NCBI GenBank assembly: GCA_000002445.1
Contig: CM000208.1
Span: 1,728,001 to 1,792,000, forward strand
Origin: Trypanosoma brucei
Lineage: Eukaryota
DNA: 64,000 bases
Reading direction: 5' to 3'
Shown here: positions 23,007-35,470 of the stretch, piece by piece
How positions within the stretch are numbered: position 1 is the stretch's first letter
Layout of the letters: each line of letters opens with the position of its first letter
Translations under genes and position numbers: made by a program
Notes under the pieces: model-generated
What the model was told of the DNA's origin: nothing
Databases searched by the model: none
The model's input: the letters and a program-made list of their open reading frames with translations, nothing else

Positions 23007-24419
23007 ATGCGCTGCTTCTACCTGGCTGATGTAGATAGGATGGTGGGTTGCAGAAGGTTGTGGACAGGCGCTCTGTCAACTTTTCGGGTAATCGTCCGTC
23101 ACGCGACAGACGTAGTGGGCCGTCTCTCTAACAGTGCTGCCGAACGCTGCATTCTGTGGAACTATGGACTGGACGGGAAAACCCCACCGGAATGCCGTTT
23201 CCACCAGCAGGAAACACCTGAGGAACCGCATCACAGGTGTGAGGTGGTAGCACTCGTTTTCTTGGGGCAGTGCTTAACTTCTTTCATGAATGGATCTTAC
23301 CAGCCAACACTGATCACCATCTACGGCAGTGTTGTATCTTCCCTCACTCCATTCAAACGCCATCTGGAGCAGTTTGCAGAAAATGTGCAGTTCTATCGTC
23401 TGTTTCTTCAAGGCTCGGGCACTCTAGTGTGCGGTGCATGTGATGCTCCCCTTTTGGTGTGGCTGGTAATGCCGTGGGAGAAAGATGGACCAGCCATACA
23501 TAAGTTCGTTATCAGGCTTGCTCAGTCATTGCGTTGCAATGCGCTGGTCGTAGCAGTGCCCCTCAATGGCTCATGTGGGCAGAAAGAGACTGTAAAGCGC
23601 CTTTCTGTCTTGCTAGAGTTGGGAAGGCAAAGAGCGCGCGCACAGCGGGTTGTCCTTGGCGGAAGTAACCTAGCAGGGATGTTTGTTTTACTATACCTAC
23701 AGGAACGATACAGCTCCCTACGCTTAGGTCCTTACGCCGCGGCAGCGCCCGAAACGGCACACCGCGCGGTGTGCTGCAGTGTGATTCTCGTTGATCCGTT
23801 TGTTGGGTGGGAAGTTGCCCATCTCTTTCACACCAACGCACCCCAACGTTCTGCGTTTCAGGGAGTGTCGGATGCGAACCGAGATTCGATACCGCCAAAC
23901 CCACCACAAGCGTACTCCGCTCGTTCCCCACCATCCACCCCGATTTCTGTAAAGGATCGTTTCAAACATGCCGTGATGATGGCGAGTGGCTCCCGCGTCC
24001 GAAAGTGGTTTCCTCCGGCCATCGCGTACGAGGCACCGCCGATGGTTTTGCTTGGGAAGGAGTCCGGAATGTGGATAGAAGAGCTGCGTGACTTCAATGC
24101 GAAGGTGGATCGGTTTTGTGTCGAGGAGAACAGGCACAGGGTGCTTTTCTTCCCATATTCCATTAGAACCACAGCCGCAGGTATGCTGGTATCGGTGAAC
24201 TGCCGTGTGGAATTGGAGCGGATGCTGCGTATGGTGGAGGGTTTCATCATCCGGCACCTTTCACGAGACGGTTGGTGTGCGGGTGTCCGACATTCCAACA
24301 CTCCATTCAACTGGGGAGAGCCAATGGAAAGGCAACGGTCCCCAGCTGGGGAAGTAACGATATGGGCAGCGTTGCCGCCGTCACAGAGAGGAGTAGTTGA
24401 GACATCGGGGAGAAGATGA
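23007..24419 (+). CDS. Hypothetical protein (~470 aa).
   Basis: The track start at 23004 is TTG; the first ATG is 23007. The start could instead be ATG 23040 (MVGCRRLW) if the AG acceptors at ~23033-23037 are used. No recognisable domain. Confidence 0.55.
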   Translation: MRCFYLADVDRMVGCRRLWTGALSTFRVIVRHATDVVGRLSNSAAERCILWNYGLDGKTPPECRFHQQETPEEPHHRCEVVALVFLGQCLTSFMNGSYQPTLITIYGSVVSSLTPFKRHLEQFAENVQFYRLFLQGSGTLVCGACDAPLLVWLVMPWEKDGPAIHKFVIRLAQSLRCNALVVAVPLNGSCGQKETVKRLSVLLELGRQRARAQRVVLGGSNLAGMFVLLYLQERYSSLRLGPYAAAAPETAHRAVCCSVILVDPFVGWEVAHLFHTNAPQRSAFQGVSDANRDSIPPNPPQAYSARSPPSTPISVKDRFKHAVMMASGSRVRKWFPPAIAYEAPPMVLLGKESGMWIEELRDFNAKVDRFCVEENRHRVLFFPYSIRTTAAGMLVSVNCRVELERMLRMVEGFIIRHLSRDGWCAGVRHSNTPFNWGEPMERQRSPAGEVTIWAALPPSQRGVVETSGRR

Positions 24420-25663
24420 AACAGGGGGAGCGAAGTTGGGCAGAGAAAGTGGAAAAGTCGACAATGCCACGTGGATCTACTTCACATCCCAACGTTGCCC
24501 GTGTTTATAAGTTGGCCCTCAACTTATTATCGACCTTCTTTTCGCGCACAGGTGTAACTTACTGGTGCGATATCGGTGTCTCTCTACTTCCCTTCTCTCC
24601 GTCTAACATATATATTAAGTGATTAGGTCCATTTTATTTTATTTTATTGCTCATCTATTTGTTCTGTTCCCCTCGCTCATTTGGTTCGTTACGAATGTCG
24701 TGATCTTTATTTTTTTTTTCAGAATATATGATCGTCAATTGAAACACACAAACAACGATGACAACAGTGAGACAGAGCACATGATTGTTGCTTGGTTTCT
24801 TCACTCCCATAATTTGTGGACCCACATCATATACGTATGTGGGGAACCATATGTATATCTATTTGCTCCTTTACACATGTGTATATCTGTGTGTGTGTGT
24901 ATTTTTATTTTATTCTACCTACCTACTTACTTTAAACAATCCACACACTCCCAAGAAAAAAAAGGGGGCCTTGCGATGGTGTGTGCATATGTTTGTGCGT
25001 AACATCCTCTGCGAATGTGGACTCTCAACCCTGTGATCAAGAAGAAAGGAGAAAAAAGAATTGAAGTGTTGGGTAATAGCTCCAAAAGGGGGGAAAGTAG
25101 GTAAGACTTTCGACCCGCGCGAAAAAGTGGATCTCCATCGTTTTGCTTTTTTTTTTGTTTTTTTTTTTGCAGTTGCCATTGCATTTTGTTGTTATACCCA
25201 CTATCTCTTTCCTTCAAGCGCACTCCGGCATCGCGGTGTGTCTTACTCTAAAGGCATACCCCAACCCCCCCCCCCAAAAAAAAGATACAAAGCGGATTGA
25301 CACTAACGTCTCGCAGCAATCATTTTCTTCGTTGGTGTGTAAAAGAAAGAGAGAGGAAGAAAAAAAATGTGTAGATGTGCATCTGCCTTTGGGATGTGTG
25401 GCGCGCACTTTGAATTTATCAGATGCAGGAGCTGAGGCAAAAAGGGGGGAGTGATGCATTTGGTTCCTATCGTTCCTTTTCCTATCTCGTTTGTTTTTTT
25501 TTTTTGGTTACAAGCTCTCTTTTTGTGATTGTCATGAATTTTTTTTTGCTTGTTTTGTCCCTCCGAGTGATATAAGTGCTGATCTTCCGTTCATCTCATT
25601 TTTCGCACTTACCTTTTTGCCATTTATTTACGTGCATATGCAAGTTTTAGGTGTCGCACGCAA

Positions 25664-27316
25664 ATGGCAACATCCATTCAGCAAAATCCATTGCGGGTGC
25701 GCACGCTAGAAGTCCTGTGGCATTGGAGGGAAATCGACGATGAGGCGCTGCAGTTTGGTCTCCAGGGAGGTAGTATCGAAGGTATTGTTTCTATAGATTA
25801 CAATCGAGTAGAAGATCGCATAGTTACTTCAGGTGGCGACAGATACATACGCCTATGGAACCTCAATATCGCTGCAATTGACCGGTGGCTTAAAAATAGT
25901 GAGAGCGGCATGGAAGATTGCGTTCAGTTTATATGTGGTGGGGTAACACCGTGGATGCCTTTGACCGCACGGTGGGCACCAAACGGCCGTCTTATCGCCT
26001 CGGGCCACTGTGATGGAAAAATATGCCTGTGGTGGAAGGAGAGCAGTAGAGATGGTGAGCCTGAGCAATGGAAGGATTATAGACATCTTTCCGGACACGT
26101 GATTGATGTGCACGATGTGTGCTTCTCGCCAGACTCGCGTTACCTCCTCAGTGCCGGTGGTGATGGGACGGTTGTGCTGCACGATCTTGAGGGAAGCACC
26201 ATGCCGGTGGTGCAGCTTCAGGAGGCACACAGCAAGTTTTGTCGTGGTGTGGCGTGGGATCCTTGGATGCACTATGTTGCTAGTTGCGGCAGTGGGCCAG
26301 CGTTGTATATTATGCAAGGGCCGAAGCACGGAGCGAAGCGAGCCTCTCTGGTATCCCAGCGAAAGGCACAGGGAGATTTTATTGGCGAGTCGTGTAGTGC
26401 ATCATATCGACGCCTTGCATGGTCGCCGGATGGTGCGATTCTTGCGGTACCGTACGGTAAAGTTTCGCAACACAAACACTCACGTTCCGCTTGCAGTGGT
26501 GGTGGGTCGGAAGATGCGACAGCTGGAGCCGCTGCGGGAGAGGACCGTTGGAAGAATTCTATGGTACATTGCGTTTACATGTACATACGTAACGCTCCGG
26601 ATAAAGTTGCAGCCCGCTTAACGGTGCGGGGTGATGCGGAGGTGCGAGGTGTACAATGGGCCCCGTGTTTCCTGGAACCCATAGATGAAATAACGTGTAA
26701 TGAAGAACAAAACGACACGACTGCAGCTGAGGTAAGCAACCAAGCGAGAAAAAGTGGACCCACAGCAGAAGAAAAAGGTTCGTGGGGCCCCGCTGATTAC
26801 CGCATGGCATTAGCAGTATGGACTGCAGATGCTGTCATGGTATATACCACAGACAGTGAAGTTCGGCACAGTGACTTCACGGATTTACATATGCGCAGCA
26901 TCTACGATGTGGCATGGAGCCCTGACGCATCTTACCTTTTAACGGCTGGACTTGATGGTTACATTACCGTCATATCAACTGGCGGTTCTCTCGGTGTTGC
27001 CCACCGTTTGCCTTTGTTCTCCAAGAAACCAACGACAAGGAGGTTGTGCACCGTGTTGCAGAATGTGAAAACGGAAAGTGAAACGTTGGGACCAGGGAGA
27101 GGAGCAACAAAAACGACTAATGCAGCAACGAAAAAGGAACCCGTTGGTGGTGAAGAGGCGGAAAACGCGAGCAGTAACACTGTCGTGCACGCGCCGGTGA
27201 AAAAGAAAAAGAAGTTAGAGCCACAAGCGCAGGAAATGTATCCGGCAAAAGAGGAACCAGATACTGCTGTGAGCCTTGGTGAGCTTTCCAAACTTATGGA
27301 TAACCTCAACGATTAA
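25664..27316 (+). CDS. WD40-repeat protein resembling chromatin assembly factor 1 subunit B (CAF-1 p60/CAC2-like), 550 aa.
   Basis: ATG at 25664. Several WD repeats (GHxxxV...SGGDRYIRLW, ASGHCDGKICLWW, LSGHVIDVHDVCFSPDSRYLLSAGGDGTVVLHDL, VAWSPDASYLLTAGLDGYITV). The N-terminal architecture is like CAF-1B/HIRA. The tail is acidic and lysine-rich. Confidence 0.65.
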   Translation: MATSIQQNPLRVRTLEVLWHWREIDDEALQFGLQGGSIEGIVSIDYNRVEDRIVTSGGDRYIRLWNLNIAAIDRWLKNSESGMEDCVQFICGGVTPWMPLTARWAPNGRLIASGHCDGKICLWWKESSRDGEPEQWKDYRHLSGHVIDVHDVCFSPDSRYLLSAGGDGTVVLHDLEGSTMPVVQLQEAHSKFCRGVAWDPWMHYVASCGSGPALYIMQGPKHGAKRASLVSQRKAQGDFIGESCSASYRRLAWSPDGAILAVPYGKVSQHKHSRSACSGGGSEDATAGAAAGEDRWKNSMVHCVYMYIRNAPDKVAARLTVRGDAEVRGVQWAPCFLEPIDEITCNEEQNDTTAAEVSNQARKSGPTAEEKGSWGPADYRMALAVWTADAVMVYTTDSEVRHSDFTDLHMRSIYDVAWSPDASYLLTAGLDGYITVISTGGSLGVAHRLPLFSKKPTTRRLCTVLQNVKTESETLGPGRGATKTTNAATKKEPVGGEEAENASSNTVVHAPVKKKKKLEPQAQEMYPAKEEPDTAVSLGELSKLMDNLND

Positions 27317-31748: not shown

Positions 31749-32249
31749 GTGTAATGCTTCGGTGCTGTTTGCAGTTGCAGTTGCAGATGCAGATGTGCCA
31801 GTCGCTCTTAATGAAATATTCCATTCTTGTTTTGATAAGTACTGTTCTTGGTTACTTCTTCGCTGTTTAAACGTAACTGCTCGTATTTTTTTTTTATTTC
31901 CTGGTGTAAACACGTAAATCGGCATGGTTGCGACACAACACGATTAGGCGGAACTAGGTGGCTTACTCACCTTTACACAAATACGTGGAGAGGAGGAGGG
32001 AGCGATTGAGAAGCGGGGCAAACAACTTGTCTGCGCACAAGTTGAGACAAAGCCACCGCAAAGCCTGATGAGGCGCTTCGCGAGGCGTCTGCACACCCCA
32101 TTGATTCTGCGCAAGACGAGGGATACGCCTGTCACTCCGCTTCGCTTCTGCAGTGCTTCCACAAATAATGCCACAAGTGAAGTTGCCCTCAATCATGGTC
32201 GCAATCCACTGGATTTGGTTGATGTGCTGGGTGGTGGTGAAAGACCCCT

Positions 32250-34133
32250 TTGGAAAGGAATTGTGAGGCGACAGGGGCGGCCAACCTTTCCAAGGTAACA
32301 TTGAGGCAGATTGTGCGGGATGTTGCGGCAACTACAGGCGCACACCACAACTCCGATCGCGGCGTTGGAAATTACGAAAATGATACTGGCATTAGCGGTA
32401 GCAGCGGATTAAGTGGCGAAACGAACGCTGGTTGCGTAGAGGAGTCACCCTACAAGGTAGCAATTGCGGATCGGTACGGCATGCCCGCGGAGCTTCCCCC
32501 TTCTGCACCACAGTTTTTTAAAGATCTAGCCGAGCTGTGTCCAAGTGAGACTCTGAGGCGACAGTTGCTGGAGCTTCAGCGGACTCGCAATTGGAATGAC
32601 ATGACAGCCGTGCAGCGCGCGGCAATCCCTCTTGCGTTGGAGCATCGGGATATTCTTTGCATCGCACCCACCGCAACAGGCAAAACGTTCGGTTATTTGT
32701 TTCCGTCTATGCTACGTTTGGCGATGTACGCCGGAACAGATGGTAGTTCGAACCTCACAGGCAGTGTTAGTGAAGACTTGAATAGACCCAACATCGAAAA
32801 GCTTATGCAAGACAAAATGGAAAAAGGTGAAGTGTGTCGTTATTGTGAGTTGTCGGTGACAGAGGTGAGAGTTTGTCCCCTGACTGGGCAACCGCACCCG
32901 GACCCCGTTCCAGAGGATGCAGCGAAGCAGCAGCGGTCTCCCATGTGGGTGAGTGAGCTGTCATCCGTGGCCGAGCCCCTCCTTCTTGTACTCGTTCCTA
33001 CTTCCCAACTCGTCATGCAGGTATATCATCTTTGCAAGAAGTTAGATGCAGACTTCCGCGTTAAGTTTCTCGTTCGCGCCTCCAGTGCGGAGGAGCAGAA
33101 GCGCCACCTGAACGCACTTGAGGGATGTGATGTGTTAATCACCACACCGGAGACCATGCTTCCTGCCCTGTACAAACGCAAGTTATCGCTGAAGCGAGTT
33201 AAAGTGCTTGTTTTAGATGAGGTTGACGACCTATTATCTACCAATCACTTCGAGAAAGTAAAGATCATACTTGGTGCACTTCCCAAAGGTCCGCAGCGTC
33301 CTCAGCGACTGCTCTTCGGTGCCTCGCTTCCCCCATCTGTGTACCAGATGATTAAGGAACAGATGCTTCTTCCATCTCACCGTTTCGTTTTGGTTGATGT
33401 GAAAACTGATAAGCTCGGGCACCCGATTGCTCCCGCCCCTGGTTCCATATGTGGAGCTGCGGTTTGCGCATCCATAACGCATGTTGTTTTTATGGTTTCG
33501 CAAGCAGAGAAGATCAGCAGGTTGGCTTGGCTCTACAGCAGCGGTAAGTTGCGTAAGGATCAGCGAACCCTCATATTCTGTAATTCGCGCCATAATGTGG
33601 CGTACGTGTGTGAGCGGTTGCAAAACCTTGTACCCGGTCTGCGTGTGACGACACTCACATCCCACTCGTCCGCCACGGGGAAAACAGGTACGATGAAACT
33701 GTTCAGCAGAGGTGCCTCCACTTGTCTCATATGCACGGATATTCTCAGTCGTGGCATTGACTTTGCTGATGTGATATATGTTGTCCATTATGACGTACCA
33801 ACTGAGTTCGAGACGTGGGTGCATCGCAGTGGCCGTTGCGGAAGGCGAGGGCTGCGGGGTTACTGTTACACGTTCTTCCAACCGGAGAATGTACGGTTGG
33901 CGAAGCCACTTGTAGCACATCTGCGACAAACACAGCAACTGATTCCGCCAAAACTTCAGGAATATGCGCGACAATCCCTCATCGATGTGTTTAAAACTTC
34001 TTTATTTTACCATCCGACACGCCGATATCGACCGAGGGACCCGCAGCAGCAGGCCCCTGTTCTGGGACGCGCAACACCCCGCTTCCCGGATTATAAGCAA
34101 GACAGGCTGAACAAGAACTTTAGGCCTCTTTGA
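32250..34133 (+). CDS. DEAD-box (DEVD variant) ATP-dependent RNA helicase. The frame-0 body is open from 32250 but has no ATG before 32481. An upstream frame-1 ORF (ATG 32068..32298) encodes a mitochondrial-presequence-like leader that overlaps it; see findings.
   Basis: Q motif TAVQRAAIP; motif I APTATGKT; motif II VLDEVDDLL; motif III SAT; motif V/VI TDILSRGIDF and HRSGRCGRRG. The track start at 32250 is TTG. Confidence 0.8.
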   Translation: MERNCEATGAANLSKVTLRQIVRDVAATTGAHHNSDRGVGNYENDTGISGSSGLSGETNAGCVEESPYKVAIADRYGMPAELPPSAPQFFKDLAELCPSETLRRQLLELQRTRNWNDMTAVQRAAIPLALEHRDILCIAPTATGKTFGYLFPSMLRLAMYAGTDGSSNLTGSVSEDLNRPNIEKLMQDKMEKGEVCRYCELSVTEVRVCPLTGQPHPDPVPEDAAKQQRSPMWVSELSSVAEPLLLVLVPTSQLVMQVYHLCKKLDADFRVKFLVRASSAEEQKRHLNALEGCDVLITTPETMLPALYKRKLSLKRVKVLVLDEVDDLLSTNHFEKVKIILGALPKGPQRPQRLLFGASLPPSVYQMIKEQMLLPSHRFVLVDVKTDKLGHPIAPAPGSICGAAVCASITHVVFMVSQAEKISRLAWLYSSGKLRKDQRTLIFCNSRHNVAYVCERLQNLVPGLRVTTLTSHSSATGKTGTMKLFSRGASTCLICTDILSRGIDFADVIYVVHYDVPTEFETWVHRSGRCGRRGLRGYCYTFFQPENVRLAKPLVAHLRQTQQLIPPKLQEYARQSLIDVFKTSLFYHPTRRYRPRDPQQQAPVLGRATPRFPDYKQDRLNKNFRPL

Positions 34134-34480: not shown

Positions 34481-35470
34481 ATGTTTCGTAACCACGCATC
34501 GAGGATCACTGCCGCAGCTGCGCCTTGGGTGCTCCGGACGGCTTGCCGCCAGAAGTCTGACGCCAAAACACCTGTGTGGGGACACACTCAACTGAACCGT
34601 CTCAGTTTTTTGGAAACCGTGCCTGTCGTTCCTTTGCGTGTTTCCGATGAAAGCAGTGAGGACCGCCCCACCTGGAGCCTTCCCGATATTGAGAATGTGG
34701 CCATAACGCACAAGAAGCCAAACGGCCTCGTTGATACACTCGCCTACCGCAGCGTCCGCACCTGCCGCTGGTTATTTGACACATTCTCTCTCTACCGTTT
34801 CGGTTCCATCACGGAGAGCAAAGTCATCAGCCGCTGCCTTTTTCTTGAAACTGTTGCCGGTGTCCCGGGGATGGTCGGTGGAATGTTGCGCCACCTTTCA
34901 TCATTGCGGTACATGACGCGCGACAAGGGTTGGATTAACACTCTTCTTGTTGAAGCAGAGAATGAGCGCATGCACCTCATGACGTTCATTGAACTTCGCC
35001 AACCAGGGCTCCCCCTACGCGTTTCCATCATTATTACGCAAGCCATTATGTACCTCTTCCTCCTGGTCGCCTATGTGATTTCCCCCCGTTTTGTACACCG
35101 CTTTGTCGGTTACCTTGAAGAGGAAGCCGTCATTACATACACCGGCGTTATGAGAGCAATTGACGAAGGAAGGCTGCGCCCTACCAAAAATGATGTTCCC
35201 GAAGTGGCTCGCGTGTACTGGAACCTCAGCAAAAATGCCACATTCCGCGACCTCATCAACGTGATCCGAGCTGACGAGGCGGAGCACCGTGTCGTTAACC
35301 ACACATTTGCTGACATGCACGAAAAACGCCTGCAAAACAGTGTCAACCCCTTCGTTGTTCTGAAGAAGAACCCAGAGGAAATGTACTCCAACCAACCAAG
35401 TGGTAAGACAAGGACGGATTTTGGAAGCGAAGGCGCCAAAACTGCGAGTAATGTAAACAAACACGTGTAA
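34481..35470 (+). CDS. TAO: Trypanosome alternative oxidase (mitochondrial ubiquinol oxidase, di-iron carboxylate protein), 329 aa.
   Basis: ATG at 34481. N-terminal mitochondrial presequence (MFRNHASRITAAAAPWVLRTACRQ). Di-iron ligand motifs LETVAGVPGMVGG, EAENERMHL, LEEEAVITY and RADEAEHR. Its length and sequence match T. brucei TAO. Confidence 0.95.
   Translation: MFRNHASRITAAAAPWVLRTACRQKSDAKTPVWGHTQLNRLSFLETVPVVPLRVSDESSEDRPTWSLPDIENVAITHKKPNGLVDTLAYRSVRTCRWLFDTFSLYRFGSITESKVISRCLFLETVAGVPGMVGGMLRHLSSLRYMTRDKGWINTLLVEAENERMHLMTFIELRQPGLPLRVSIIITQAIMYLFLLVAYVISPRFVHRFVGYLEEEAVITYTGVMRAIDEGRLRPTKNDVPEVARVYWNLSKNATFRDLINVIRADEAEHRVVNHTFADMHEKRLQNSVNPFVVLKKNPEEMYSNQPSGKTRTDFGSEGAKTASNVNKHV

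What the first reader, a model, noticed from the sequence alone, without database searches (positions are those of the whole stretch)
32068..32490. Apparent frameshift separates a mitochondrial-presequence leader ORF from the DEAD-box helicase body
The helicase reading frame (frame 0) is open from 32250, but its first ATG is 32481 (MPAELPP...), which would give no targeting signal. A frame-1 ORF begins at ATG 32068 with MRRFARRLHTPLILRKTRDTPVTPLRF..., a textbook Arg-rich amphipathic mitochondrial presequence. It runs to 32298 and overlaps the helicase frame for 49 nt (32250..32298). That stretch is rich in short homopolymers: cccc, ttt, ggggcgg. A single-base indel there would fuse them into a mitochondrial DEAD-box helicase of ~690 aa. 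So this is either a sequencing or assembly indel, a strain-specific pseudogenising frameshift, or, less likely, a real recoding event.
Basis: seen in the sequence. Interest (0 to 1): 0.6.

Follow-up and report, generated by a model that had tools for sequence, protein, structure and literature searches.

The report
One-base sequencing error splits helicase gene
The apparent frameshift is one missing C in an old archived version of the Trypanosoma brucei TREU927 chromosome 10 sequence; the real gene is an ordinary, uninterrupted 688-residue mitochondrial DEAD-box helicase, and later versions of the reference already have the extra base.

Summary
A 76-codon ORF from ATG 32068 ends at 32298 and overlaps the helicase frame, which opens at 32250 and has its first in-frame ATG at 32481. 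The window is T. b. brucei TREU927 chr10, gene Tb927.10.7080, in the 2005 GenBank version; the annotated 550-aa product starts at 32481.

The cause is a C4 run (32245..32248) that is C5 in every other source: T. b. gambiense DAL972, T. equiperdum, assembly GCA_003543875.1, and two spliced-leader-bearing RNA contigs. Adding one C gives a 688-aa protein 100% identical to T. equiperdum's.

Jensen et al. 2014 worked with strain TREU927 itself on the TriTrypDB v5 sequence. They place the two ATGs 414 nt apart (413 here), map the major trans-splice site to window 31948 (120-nt 5'UTR, the same junction I found in RNA contigs), and moved the CDS start to the upstream ATG. Peikert et al. 2017 found the protein depleted from mitochondria after ATOM40 knockdown, although the truncated model has no predicted presequence.

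So this is a reference-version artefact, already corrected and re-annotated. A genuinely heterozygous C4 allele in TREU927 remains possible (about 0.1). Recoding is not supported. Interest is low.

The parts
31886..31895 (+). Poly-T (polypyrimidine) tract upstream of the trans-splice acceptor; T10 here, T17 in T. b. gambiense
   Evidence: Its role as the polypyrimidine tract for SL addition is inferred from general trypanosome biology.
31946..31947 (+). AG trans-splice acceptor; the spliced leader is joined to base 31948
   Evidence: Logan RNA contigs L002/L003 begin with 26-27 nt of the T. brucei SL 3' end, followed by GCGGAACTAGG = window 31948 onward. Jensen 2014 Add. file 6 gives the major SL site at chr10:1780972 with 972 reads (86.9%), which maps to window 31948.
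31948..32067 (+). 5'UTR of the mature mRNA: 120 nt with no AUG, so ATG 32068 is the first AUG
   Evidence: 120 nt, no ATG. Jensen 2014 independently lists a 5'UTR length of 120.
32068..32247 (+). True start codon and codons 1-60 of the helicase. Includes the Arg-rich presequence-like leader (residues ~1-27) and the conserved LDLVDVLG motif (32209..32232).
   Evidence: 100% identical to the N-termini of the gambiense and equiperdum 688-aa proteins. Net charge +6 in the first 25 residues, first acidic residue at position 19, max hydrophobic moment 0.85; the TAO presequence control scores +5 / 27 / 0.61. Jensen 2014 moved the CDS start here.
32245..32248 (+). C4 homopolymer that should be C5: the site of the missing base
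   Evidence: This is the only indel against L001, L004, L002, L003 and L006 in the leader/junction region, and all of those have C5. Inserting a C here gives a 688-aa ORF identical to T. equiperdum P0122. The extra base in v5 must lie within ~32238..32297 for the ORF to be open.
32250..32293 (+). Hairpin with a perfect 9-bp stem (TTGGAAAGG / CCTTTCCAA) directly after the C-run
   Evidence: MFE of the 91-nt stretch is -28.1 kcal/mol, z = -1.77, and 13 of 200 shuffles fold as well. It is a possible cause of a Sanger compression at the adjacent run (inference). It is also present in the C5 strains, so it is not evidence for recoding.
32296..32298 (+). TAA that ends the 76-codon ORF; it is out of frame in the true gene
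32250..32480 (+). Codons 62-138 of the true protein, left out of the annotated 550-aa model
   Evidence: This stretch is in frame with the helicase and has no stop. It aligns to orthologues, and the conserved block SPYKVAIADRYG (from 32445) runs straight into the annotated Met.
32481..34133 (+). Annotated Tb927.10.7080 CDS (550 aa plus stop; XP_822943.1 / Q38AQ5), corresponding to residues 139-688 of the true protein. Contains the DEAD and Helicase_C domains.
   Evidence: Exact match to the TREU927 protein. Pfam DEAD 95.9 bits and Helicase_C 77.7 bits, both above the curated cut-offs.

Best explanation
The window is the 2005 GenBank/RefSeq version of T. b. brucei TREU927 chromosome 10, and in it one C is missing from a run of five (C4 at 32245..32248). 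The missing base splits one gene, Tb927.10.7080, into a 76-codon 'leader ORF' and a helicase ORF. The annotators then started the helicase at the first in-frame ATG (32481), giving a 550-aa model without its N-terminus. The real gene is trans-spliced at 31948 and translated from the first AUG of the mRNA (32068). It encodes a 688-aa DEAD-box (DEVD-variant) RNA helicase whose Arg-rich N-terminal presequence sends it into the mitochondrion through the ATOM40 translocase.

Shown: C5 in all other sources; one extra base in the later TREU927 v5 sequence; the SL site; the start-codon revision made from TREU927 ribosome-profiling and SL data; ATOM40-dependent mitochondrial abundance.

Inferred: that the extra base in v5 is the C of this run; that the original miscall was a Sanger homopolymer/compression error; and that the leader is the functional targeting signal.
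For: (1) The C4 run is the only indel against T. b. gambiense, T. equiperdum and two RNA contigs over ~600 nt. It is the only coding indel among 8 and 17 indel events in the 8-kb comparisons. Against T. equiperdum the whole mRNA region 31948..34133 has 0 SNPs.
(2) Adding one C gives a 688-aa protein 100% identical to T. equiperdum P0122 and 6 substitutions away from gambiense P0001.
(3) A fourth genome (GCA_003543875.1, L006) also has C5.
(4) Jensen 2014 (strain TREU927, TriTrypDB v5) gives the CDS start as 1781506 in v5 and 1781092 in their study, a discrepancy of -414. [quoted passage not shown]
(5) Coordinate anchoring: the v5-minus-window offset is 1,749,024 for three upstream gene starts, the SL site and ATG 32068. 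It is 1,749,025 for ATG 32481 and the TAO start. So v5 has exactly one more base between the two ATGs, and that base must lie in ~32238..32297.
(6) The SL junction in RNA contigs and in Jensen's SL-seq is the same base, giving a 120-nt UTR with no AUG. Six out-of-frame AUGs precede 32481.
(7) Orthologues across Trypanosoma have continuous N-termini. The annotated Met is internal to a conserved block.
(8) Peikert 2017 Suppl. Data 6 lists Tb927.10.7080 as a new mitochondrial candidate: 0.48-fold after ATOM40 RNAi, 4/4 replicates, p = 0.015. Its TargetP and MitoFates columns are blank for the 62-kDa model.
(9) The leader has presequence-like composition, and the 550-aa N-terminus does not (net charge -3, first acidic residue at position 4).
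Against: I could not read the v5 sequence itself, so the identity and exact position of its extra base are inferred from coordinates and from other strains. I found no document stating how chr10 v5 was corrected. If correction used short-read consensus, it reports only the majority allele, so a C4/C5 heterozygote is not excluded. No TREU927 reads or read-derived contigs covering the site could be retrieved. The importome experiment used TREU927 protein models for its searches, but I did not establish which cell line it used. No peptide from residues 1-138 has been shown.
Confidence: 0.86

Rival explanations
1. C4 is a real allele in strain TREU927, most likely heterozygous with C5. The 2005 mosaic consensus happened to capture the null allele and the later version captured the intact one. 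The C4 mRNA would yield only the 76-aa peptide.
For: Cosentino 2021 found 123 Lister 427 genes with allele-specific CDS-length differences. One is a 1-bp indel allele giving a 71-aa ORF followed by a 300-aa ORF, with only the first ORF translated and no reinitiation. Consensus polishing reports the most abundant allele. No TREU927 reads were available to me.
Against: C4 is seen in no other source. The haplotype is otherwise identical to T. equiperdum across the whole mRNA, so the mutation would have to be very recent. The later reference for the same strain has the extra base, and the TREU927 ribosome-profiling authors extended the CDS in frame. A homopolymer next to a 9-bp hairpin is a typical Sanger miscall site (inference).
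Confidence: 0.1
2. A homozygous, strain-specific pseudogenising frameshift: TREU927 has lost the mitochondrial form of this helicase.
For: The window sequence as given.
Against: There are no secondary disabling mutations: 0 other differences from T. equiperdum in 2,186 nt. The v5 sequence of the same strain is in frame. [quoted passage not shown] The gene is conserved across trypanosomatids down to Leishmania and Phytomonas.
Confidence: 0.02
3. Programmed recoding: a -1 ribosomal frameshift (or transcript slippage) at the C-run, helped by the downstream hairpin, fuses the two ORFs.
For: A perfect 9-bp stem starts one base after the run. The required shift is -1.
Against: There is no X XXY YYZ heptamer in the upstream frame (AGA CCC CTT TGG). 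The hairpin spacing is ~1 nt rather than the usual 5-9 nt (general knowledge), and its stability is unremarkable (z = -1.77). Four bases is too short for polymerase slippage (general knowledge). Every relative, including the RNA contigs' own strain, encodes the fifth C directly, so nothing is conserved as a recoding site. The later reference of the same strain has the base in the DNA.
Confidence: 0.005
4. The sequence is correct, the upstream ORF is a coincidental uORF, and the helicase really starts at ATG 32481 and is not mitochondrial.
For: This is the GenBank/RefSeq and early TriTrypDB gene model (62.1 kDa).
Against: The 'uORF' is homologous to orthologue N-termini. Conservation continues upstream of Met 139. 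Six out-of-frame AUGs precede 32481, and trypanosome ribosomes show no reinitiation after premature stops. The protein behaves as an ATOM40-dependent mitochondrial protein.
Confidence: 0.01

Closest known systems
Tb927.10.7080 orthologues: T. b. gambiense DAL972 CBH15773.1 / XP_011778037.1 and T. equiperdum SCU68805.1 (both 688 aa)
   Same: It is the same gene in the same synteny (Nup96/Nic96, SNAP subunit, helicase, TAO). After the one-base repair it is identical to T. equiperdum (0 of 688 differences) and differs from gambiense at 6 of 688 residues.
   Different: Only the missing C in this sequence version, and the truncated 550-aa model that results from it (XP_822943.1 / Q38AQ5).
Reference-genome homopolymer indel errors later fixed by re-sequencing (e.g. 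iCORN correction of Leishmania genomes)
   Same: A one-base homopolymer miscount created an internal frameshift in a conserved gene. In L. infantum, 98 such models became intact ORFs after correction. A general warning about homopolymer frameshifts appears. Assembly L006 has two other one-base deletions in this same gene.
   Different: I found no explicit record of the correction procedure for TREU927 chr10. The correction is inferred from a +1 coordinate shift between versions.
Genuine allele-specific frameshifts in T. brucei Lister 427 (Cosentino, Brink & Siegel 2021)
   Same: The layout is the same: a 1-bp indel near the 5' end gives a ~70-aa ORF followed by a long downstream ORF carrying the functional domain. 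Only the first ORF is translated.
   Different: Those alleles were phased and supported by reads. Here the C4 form appears only in one old consensus and is contradicted by a later version of the same strain's sequence.
DEAD-box RNA helicases (DBP2 / DDX5 / DDX17 / DDX3X-like cores)
   Same: It has both RecA-like domains above Pfam thresholds. Its best PDB sequence matches are DBP2 (E = 4.6e-38), DDX17 and DDX3X. Motifs Q, I, Ia, V and VI are recognisable.
   Different: Motif II is DEVD and motif III is GAS. An ~84-residue insertion (residues ~219-302) between motifs I and Ia carries a conserved Cys/His cluster and has no counterpart in the PDB matches. It also has an N-terminal mitochondrial leader. 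No close solved structure exists, and it is not among the modelled trypanosome mitoribosome assembly helicases.

Membership tests
DEAD-box RNA helicase (SF2) | DEAD/DEAH helicase core domain plus Helicase_C domain above the curated thresholds | tested here: met
   PF00270 95.9 bits (cut-off 26) and PF00271 77.7 bits (cut-off 23.5).
DEAD-box RNA helicase (SF2) | Canonical sequence motifs Q, I (AxxGxGKT), Ia, II (D-E-A-D), III (SAT), V, VI (HRxGRxGR) | tested here: inconclusive
   Q (TAVQ), I (APTATGKT), Ia (PTSQLV), V (SRGID) and VI (HRSGRCGR) are present. Motif II is DEVD and motif III is GAS. These variants are conserved in the orthologues. ATPase/helicase activity has not been tested.
Presequence-targeted mitochondrial matrix/inner-membrane proteins | N-terminal positively charged, acid-poor, amphipathic leader | tested here: met
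   Simple composition test only. The leader has net charge +6 in 25 residues, first acidic residue at position 19 and muH 0.85; TAO (positive control) scores +5 / 27 / 0.61; the annotated 550-aa N-terminus scores -3 / 4 / 0.60; none of 33 long ORFs in the window reaches net +7. TargetP and MitoFates could not be run on the 688-aa form.
Presequence-targeted mitochondrial matrix/inner-membrane proteins | Import dependent on the outer-membrane translocase; protein present in purified mitochondria | not testable with these tools
   From the literature: Peikert 2017 Suppl. Data 6 reports 0.48-fold in gradient-purified mitochondria after ATOM40 RNAi, 4/4 replicates, p = 0.015. No localisation image or N-terminal peptide was retrieved.
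Programmed -1 ribosomal frameshift site | Slippery heptamer X XXY YYZ in the upstream frame | tested here: not met
   The upstream-frame codons are AGA CCC CTT TGG.
Programmed -1 ribosomal frameshift site | Stable downstream structure at a 5-9 nt spacing | tested here: inconclusive
   A hairpin with a 9-bp stem starts ~1 nt after the run; z = -1.77, and 13 of 200 shuffles fold as well.
Programmed -1 ribosomal frameshift site | Frameshift configuration conserved in relatives | tested here: not met
   All relatives encode a continuous ORF with C5.
Pseudogene | Accumulated disabling or relaxed-constraint changes beyond the first lesion | tested here: not met
   There are 0 other differences from T. 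equiperdum across 31948..34133, and both part-ORFs are intact.

The most novel reading that the evidence does not exclude
Strain TREU927 may really be heterozygous C4/C5 at this run, carrying one natural null allele of a conserved mitochondrial DEAD-box helicase. Its mRNA would be made but would yield only a 76-aa presequence-bearing peptide. The two reference versions would then each have sampled a different allele. (A true recoding event on a C4 transcript is not strictly excluded, but I put it below 0.01.)
Probability: 0.1. Interest if true: 0.2.

Novelty: not a real feature. Interest (0 to 1): 0.07.

Why it matters
Biologically it matters very little: the gene is intact and conventional. 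The practical lesson is about data provenance. The GenBank/RefSeq TREU927 record, and the protein entries derived from it (XP_822943.1, Q38AQ5; 550 aa), still lack the first 138 residues, including the targeting signal. This has a visible consequence. In the mitochondrial importome study the protein was experimentally ATOM40-dependent but scored negative with TargetP and MitoFates. Anyone tagging the N-terminus, designing constructs from the 550-aa model, or searching mass spectra against it would mislocalise the protein or miss peptides. For a genome scan, the case is a useful negative control: a well-argued 'frameshift with presequence' call that resolves to a one-base reference error.

Tried and rejected
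(1) A PDB sequence search, to see whether the protein is one of the DEAD-box factors modelled in trypanosome mitoribosome assembly intermediates and whether residues upstream of Met139 are modelled. It returned only generic DEAD-box cores.
(2) Full-text searches for Tb927.10.7080, Tb10.6k15.3650, Q38AQ5, XP_822943 and guessed orthologue IDs gave 0 papers. The ID occurs only in supplements.
(3) TrypTag (TREU927 cells) would show C-terminal-tag localisation, but the per-gene table is not in the held supplements.
(4) The Nilsson 2010 SL-trapping supplements do not list the gene.
(5) Pyrih 2023 (sub-mitochondrial map) and Parsons 2015 (annotation by ribosome profiling) are not held.
(6) A look-up of the contig encoding the 550-aa TREU927 protein found nothing on record. 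Look-ups through TAO and the SNAP subunit returned other strains but not the NCBI TREU927 record. So I could not directly align the window to a named TREU927 record or to TREU927 reads.
(7) A search for documentation of iCORN-type correction of TREU927 found only the Leishmania precedent.
(8) I considered the 729-aa Logan 'protein' as a longer isoform and rejected it. It is a gene call that starts at the TTG inside the spliced leader and reads through the 5'UTR.
(9) I considered the hairpin as a frameshift stimulator and rejected it (see rivals).
Full report
**1. The observation**

- ATG 32068 opens a 76-codon ORF (MRRFARRLHTPLILRKTRDTPVTPLRF...GGGERPLWKGIVRRQGRPTFPR) that ends at TAA 32296..32298.
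- The helicase frame is open after TGA 32238..32240. It is listed from TTG 32250, has its first ATG at 32481, and ends at 34133.
- Pfam finds DEAD (95.9 bits) and Helicase_C (77.7 bits) in the long ORF and nothing in the short one.

**2. Where the window comes from**

- The 550-aa product from ATG 32481 is, residue for residue, T. brucei brucei TREU927 XP_822943.1 / EAN78115.1 / Q38AQ5, on a 4,054,025-bp NCBI contig.
- The gene is Tb927.10.7080, old ID Tb10.6k15.3650.
- The neighbours are a Nic96-type nucleoporin, a SNAP-complex subunit and, downstream at 34481..35470, the trypanosome alternative oxidase.

**3. What the relatives show**

- The same 90% cluster contains 688-aa proteins from T. 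b. gambiense DAL972 and T. equiperdum. They read ...GGGERPPLERNCEATGAANLSK..., which is the window's frame-1 ORF joined to its frame-0 ORF.
- At the DNA level, the only indel over ~600 nt is a C-run. It is C4 in the window (32245..32248) and C5 in gambiense (L001), T. equiperdum (L004) and two Logan RNA-seq contigs (L002, L003).
- Inserting one C yields a 688-aa ORF identical to the T. equiperdum protein and 6 substitutions from gambiense.
- In 8-kb comparisons this is the only indel inside any coding region. The other 7 (equiperdum) and 16 (gambiense) are all in intergenic low-complexity tracts. Against T. equiperdum the whole mRNA (31948..34133) shows no SNP at all.
- A fourth assembly (GCA_003543875.1, L006) also has C5. 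It carries two other one-base deletions in the same gene (at window 32323 and 33512) that truncate its gene call to 114 aa, which shows how easily assemblies generate such frameshifts.

**4. The upstream ORF is coding sequence, not a chance uORF**

- Its first 60 residues align to the N-termini of T. grayi, T. congolense and T. vivax, and share a conserved L(D/E)L(V/I)D(V/A)(L/M)G motif (32209..32232).
- Conservation in the helicase frame continues upstream of the annotated start. The block SPYxVxIADRYG-M-PAELP spans Met139, so that Met is internal.

**5. The mRNA**

- L002 and L003 begin with 26-27 nt of the T. brucei spliced-leader 3' end. I supplied the SL sequence from my own knowledge. 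It is joined to GCGGAACTAGG..., which is window 31948, directly after an AG.
- The 5'UTR is 120 nt and has no AUG, so ATG 32068 is the first AUG. Six out-of-frame AUGs lie between it and 32481.
- Cosentino et al. 2021 showed by allele-specific ribosome profiling that after a premature stop T. brucei ribosomes do not reinitiate. One of their examples has exactly this layout: a 71-aa ORF followed by a 300-aa ORF. A C4 mRNA would therefore not be expected to give the annotated 550-aa product.

**6. Evidence from strain TREU927 itself**

Jensen et al. 2014 (PMC4210626) did SL-seq, RNA-seq and ribosome profiling on TREU927 procyclic and bloodstream forms, using the TriTrypDB v5.0 sequence.
- Their Additional file 6 lists, for Tb927.10.7080, a 5'UTR start at chr10:1780972, a length of 120 nt, and 972 SL reads (86.9% of reads at that site).
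- Their Additional file 7 lists CDS start 1781506 in TriTrypDB v5 and 1781092 in their study, a discrepancy of -414.
- 414 is 138 codons. In the window the same two ATGs are 413 nt apart.

I anchored the v5 coordinates to the window:

| Anchor | v5 minus window offset |
|---|---|
| Starts of Tb927.10.7050, .7060, .7070 | 1,749,024 |
| SL site (window 31948) | 1,749,024 |
| ATG 32068 | 1,749,024 |
| ATG 32481 | 1,749,025 |
| TAO start (34481) | 1,749,025 |

- So the later sequence of the same strain has exactly one more base between the two ATGs. For the ORF to be open, that base must lie in ~32238..32297, which contains the C-run.
- Jensen's tables label chromosomes 9 and 11 'v5' and chromosomes 4 and 6 'v4'. 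Only some chromosomes were revised, which is consistent with chr10 having changed since 2005.
- I found no text describing the correction for TREU927. The GeneDB paper describes the same kind of fix for Leishmania, where 98 frameshifted L. infantum models were restored by iCORN.

**7. Function and targeting**

- The leader MRRFARRLHTPLILRKTRDTPVTPLRF has net charge +6 in its first 25 residues, its first acidic residue at position 19, and a maximum 11-residue hydrophobic moment of 0.85. The known presequence of TAO next door scores +5 / 27 / 0.61, and the annotated 550-aa N-terminus scores -3 / 4 / 0.60. This is a heuristic test, not a trained predictor.
- Experimentally, Peikert et al. 2017 (PMC5436138, Suppl. 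Data 6) list Tb927.10.7080 among new mitochondrial candidates. It is 0.48-fold in gradient-purified mitochondria after ATOM40 RNAi (4/4 replicates, p = 0.015). The TargetP and MitoFates columns are empty for the 62.1-kDa model, which is what a model lacking its presequence would give.
- The most likely mechanism is therefore conventional: translation from the first AUG, presequence-dependent import through ATOM40, and action as a mitochondrial RNA helicase. Its RNA substrate is unknown. No close solved structure exists.

**8. Rivals**

- *Real heterozygous C4 allele.* This is the only serious one. Such alleles exist in T. brucei (123 genes in Lister 427), and consensus polishing reports the majority allele. 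I could not obtain TREU927 reads, so I leave it at about 0.1.
- *Homozygous pseudogenisation.* Contradicted by the v5 sequence, by the TREU927-based start revision, and by the absence of any second lesion.
- *Recoding.* There is no slippery heptamer (AGA CCC CTT TGG). The hairpin (32250..32293) sits too close to the run and is only marginally more stable than shuffles (z = -1.77). Every relative encodes the fifth C in its DNA. The same hairpin next to a homopolymer is a plausible reason for a Sanger compression miscall, but that is my inference.

**9. Verdict**

The frameshift is an artefact of an outdated sequence version. The intact gene was already annotated in sister taxa, the base is present in the later TREU927 sequence, and the start codon was already revised in the literature. 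Novelty: not a real feature. Interest: low.

Noticed in passing
window 23040..25664: There is a second one-base register change between this window and TriTrypDB v5. The starts of Tb927.10.7030 and .7040 have offset 1,749,025, while .7050 onward have 1,749,024. So the window has one base more than v5 somewhere in the Tb927.10.7040 CDS (ORF to 24419) or the intergenic region after it. Downstream of TAO (Tb927.10.7100 and beyond) the versions differ by more than 4 nt.
   Followed up: partly
window 32721..32972 (residues ~219-302 of the 688-aa protein); Cys/His cluster 32835..32897: An ~84-residue insertion lies between helicase motifs I and Ia and has no counterpart in the best PDB matches. It contains CRYCELSVTEVRVCPLTGQPH, a C-x2-C...C...H cluster conserved in all Trypanosoma orthologues. 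It may be a small zinc-binding element.
   Followed up: no
window 33213..33230 and 33315..33329: Motif II reads DEVD rather than DEAD, and motif III reads GAS rather than SAT. Both variants are conserved in the orthologues.
   Followed up: no
L006 (GCA_003543875.1), equivalent to window 32323 and 33512: This chromosome-level assembly has C5 at the junction but two other single-base deletions in the same gene. Its gene call stops after 114 aa and the helicase is otherwise unannotated there. These look like unpolished assembly errors.
   Followed up: partly
L002 24..2213 and L003 25..2214 (protein P0123, 729 aa): The 729-aa 'protein' in the collection is a gene-calling artefact. The call starts at the TTG at the end of the spliced leader and reads through the 120-nt 5'UTR, which has no in-frame stop in that strain.
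   Followed up: yes
P0002 (T. congolense IL3000, 723 aa), residues 1-38: The T. congolense model seems over-extended at its N-terminus. Its Met39 (MRSLVRCLHSS...) aligns with Met1 of all other orthologues.
   Followed up: no
window 31924..31947: An ATG at 31924 opens a short ORF (ATG GTT GCG ACA CAA CAC GAT TAG). It lies upstream of the SL addition site, so it is absent from the mature mRNA.
   Followed up: yes
window 31886..31895: The polypyrimidine T-run ahead of the splice acceptor varies in length between strains: T10 in the window and T. equiperdum, T17 in T. b. gambiense.
   Followed up: no
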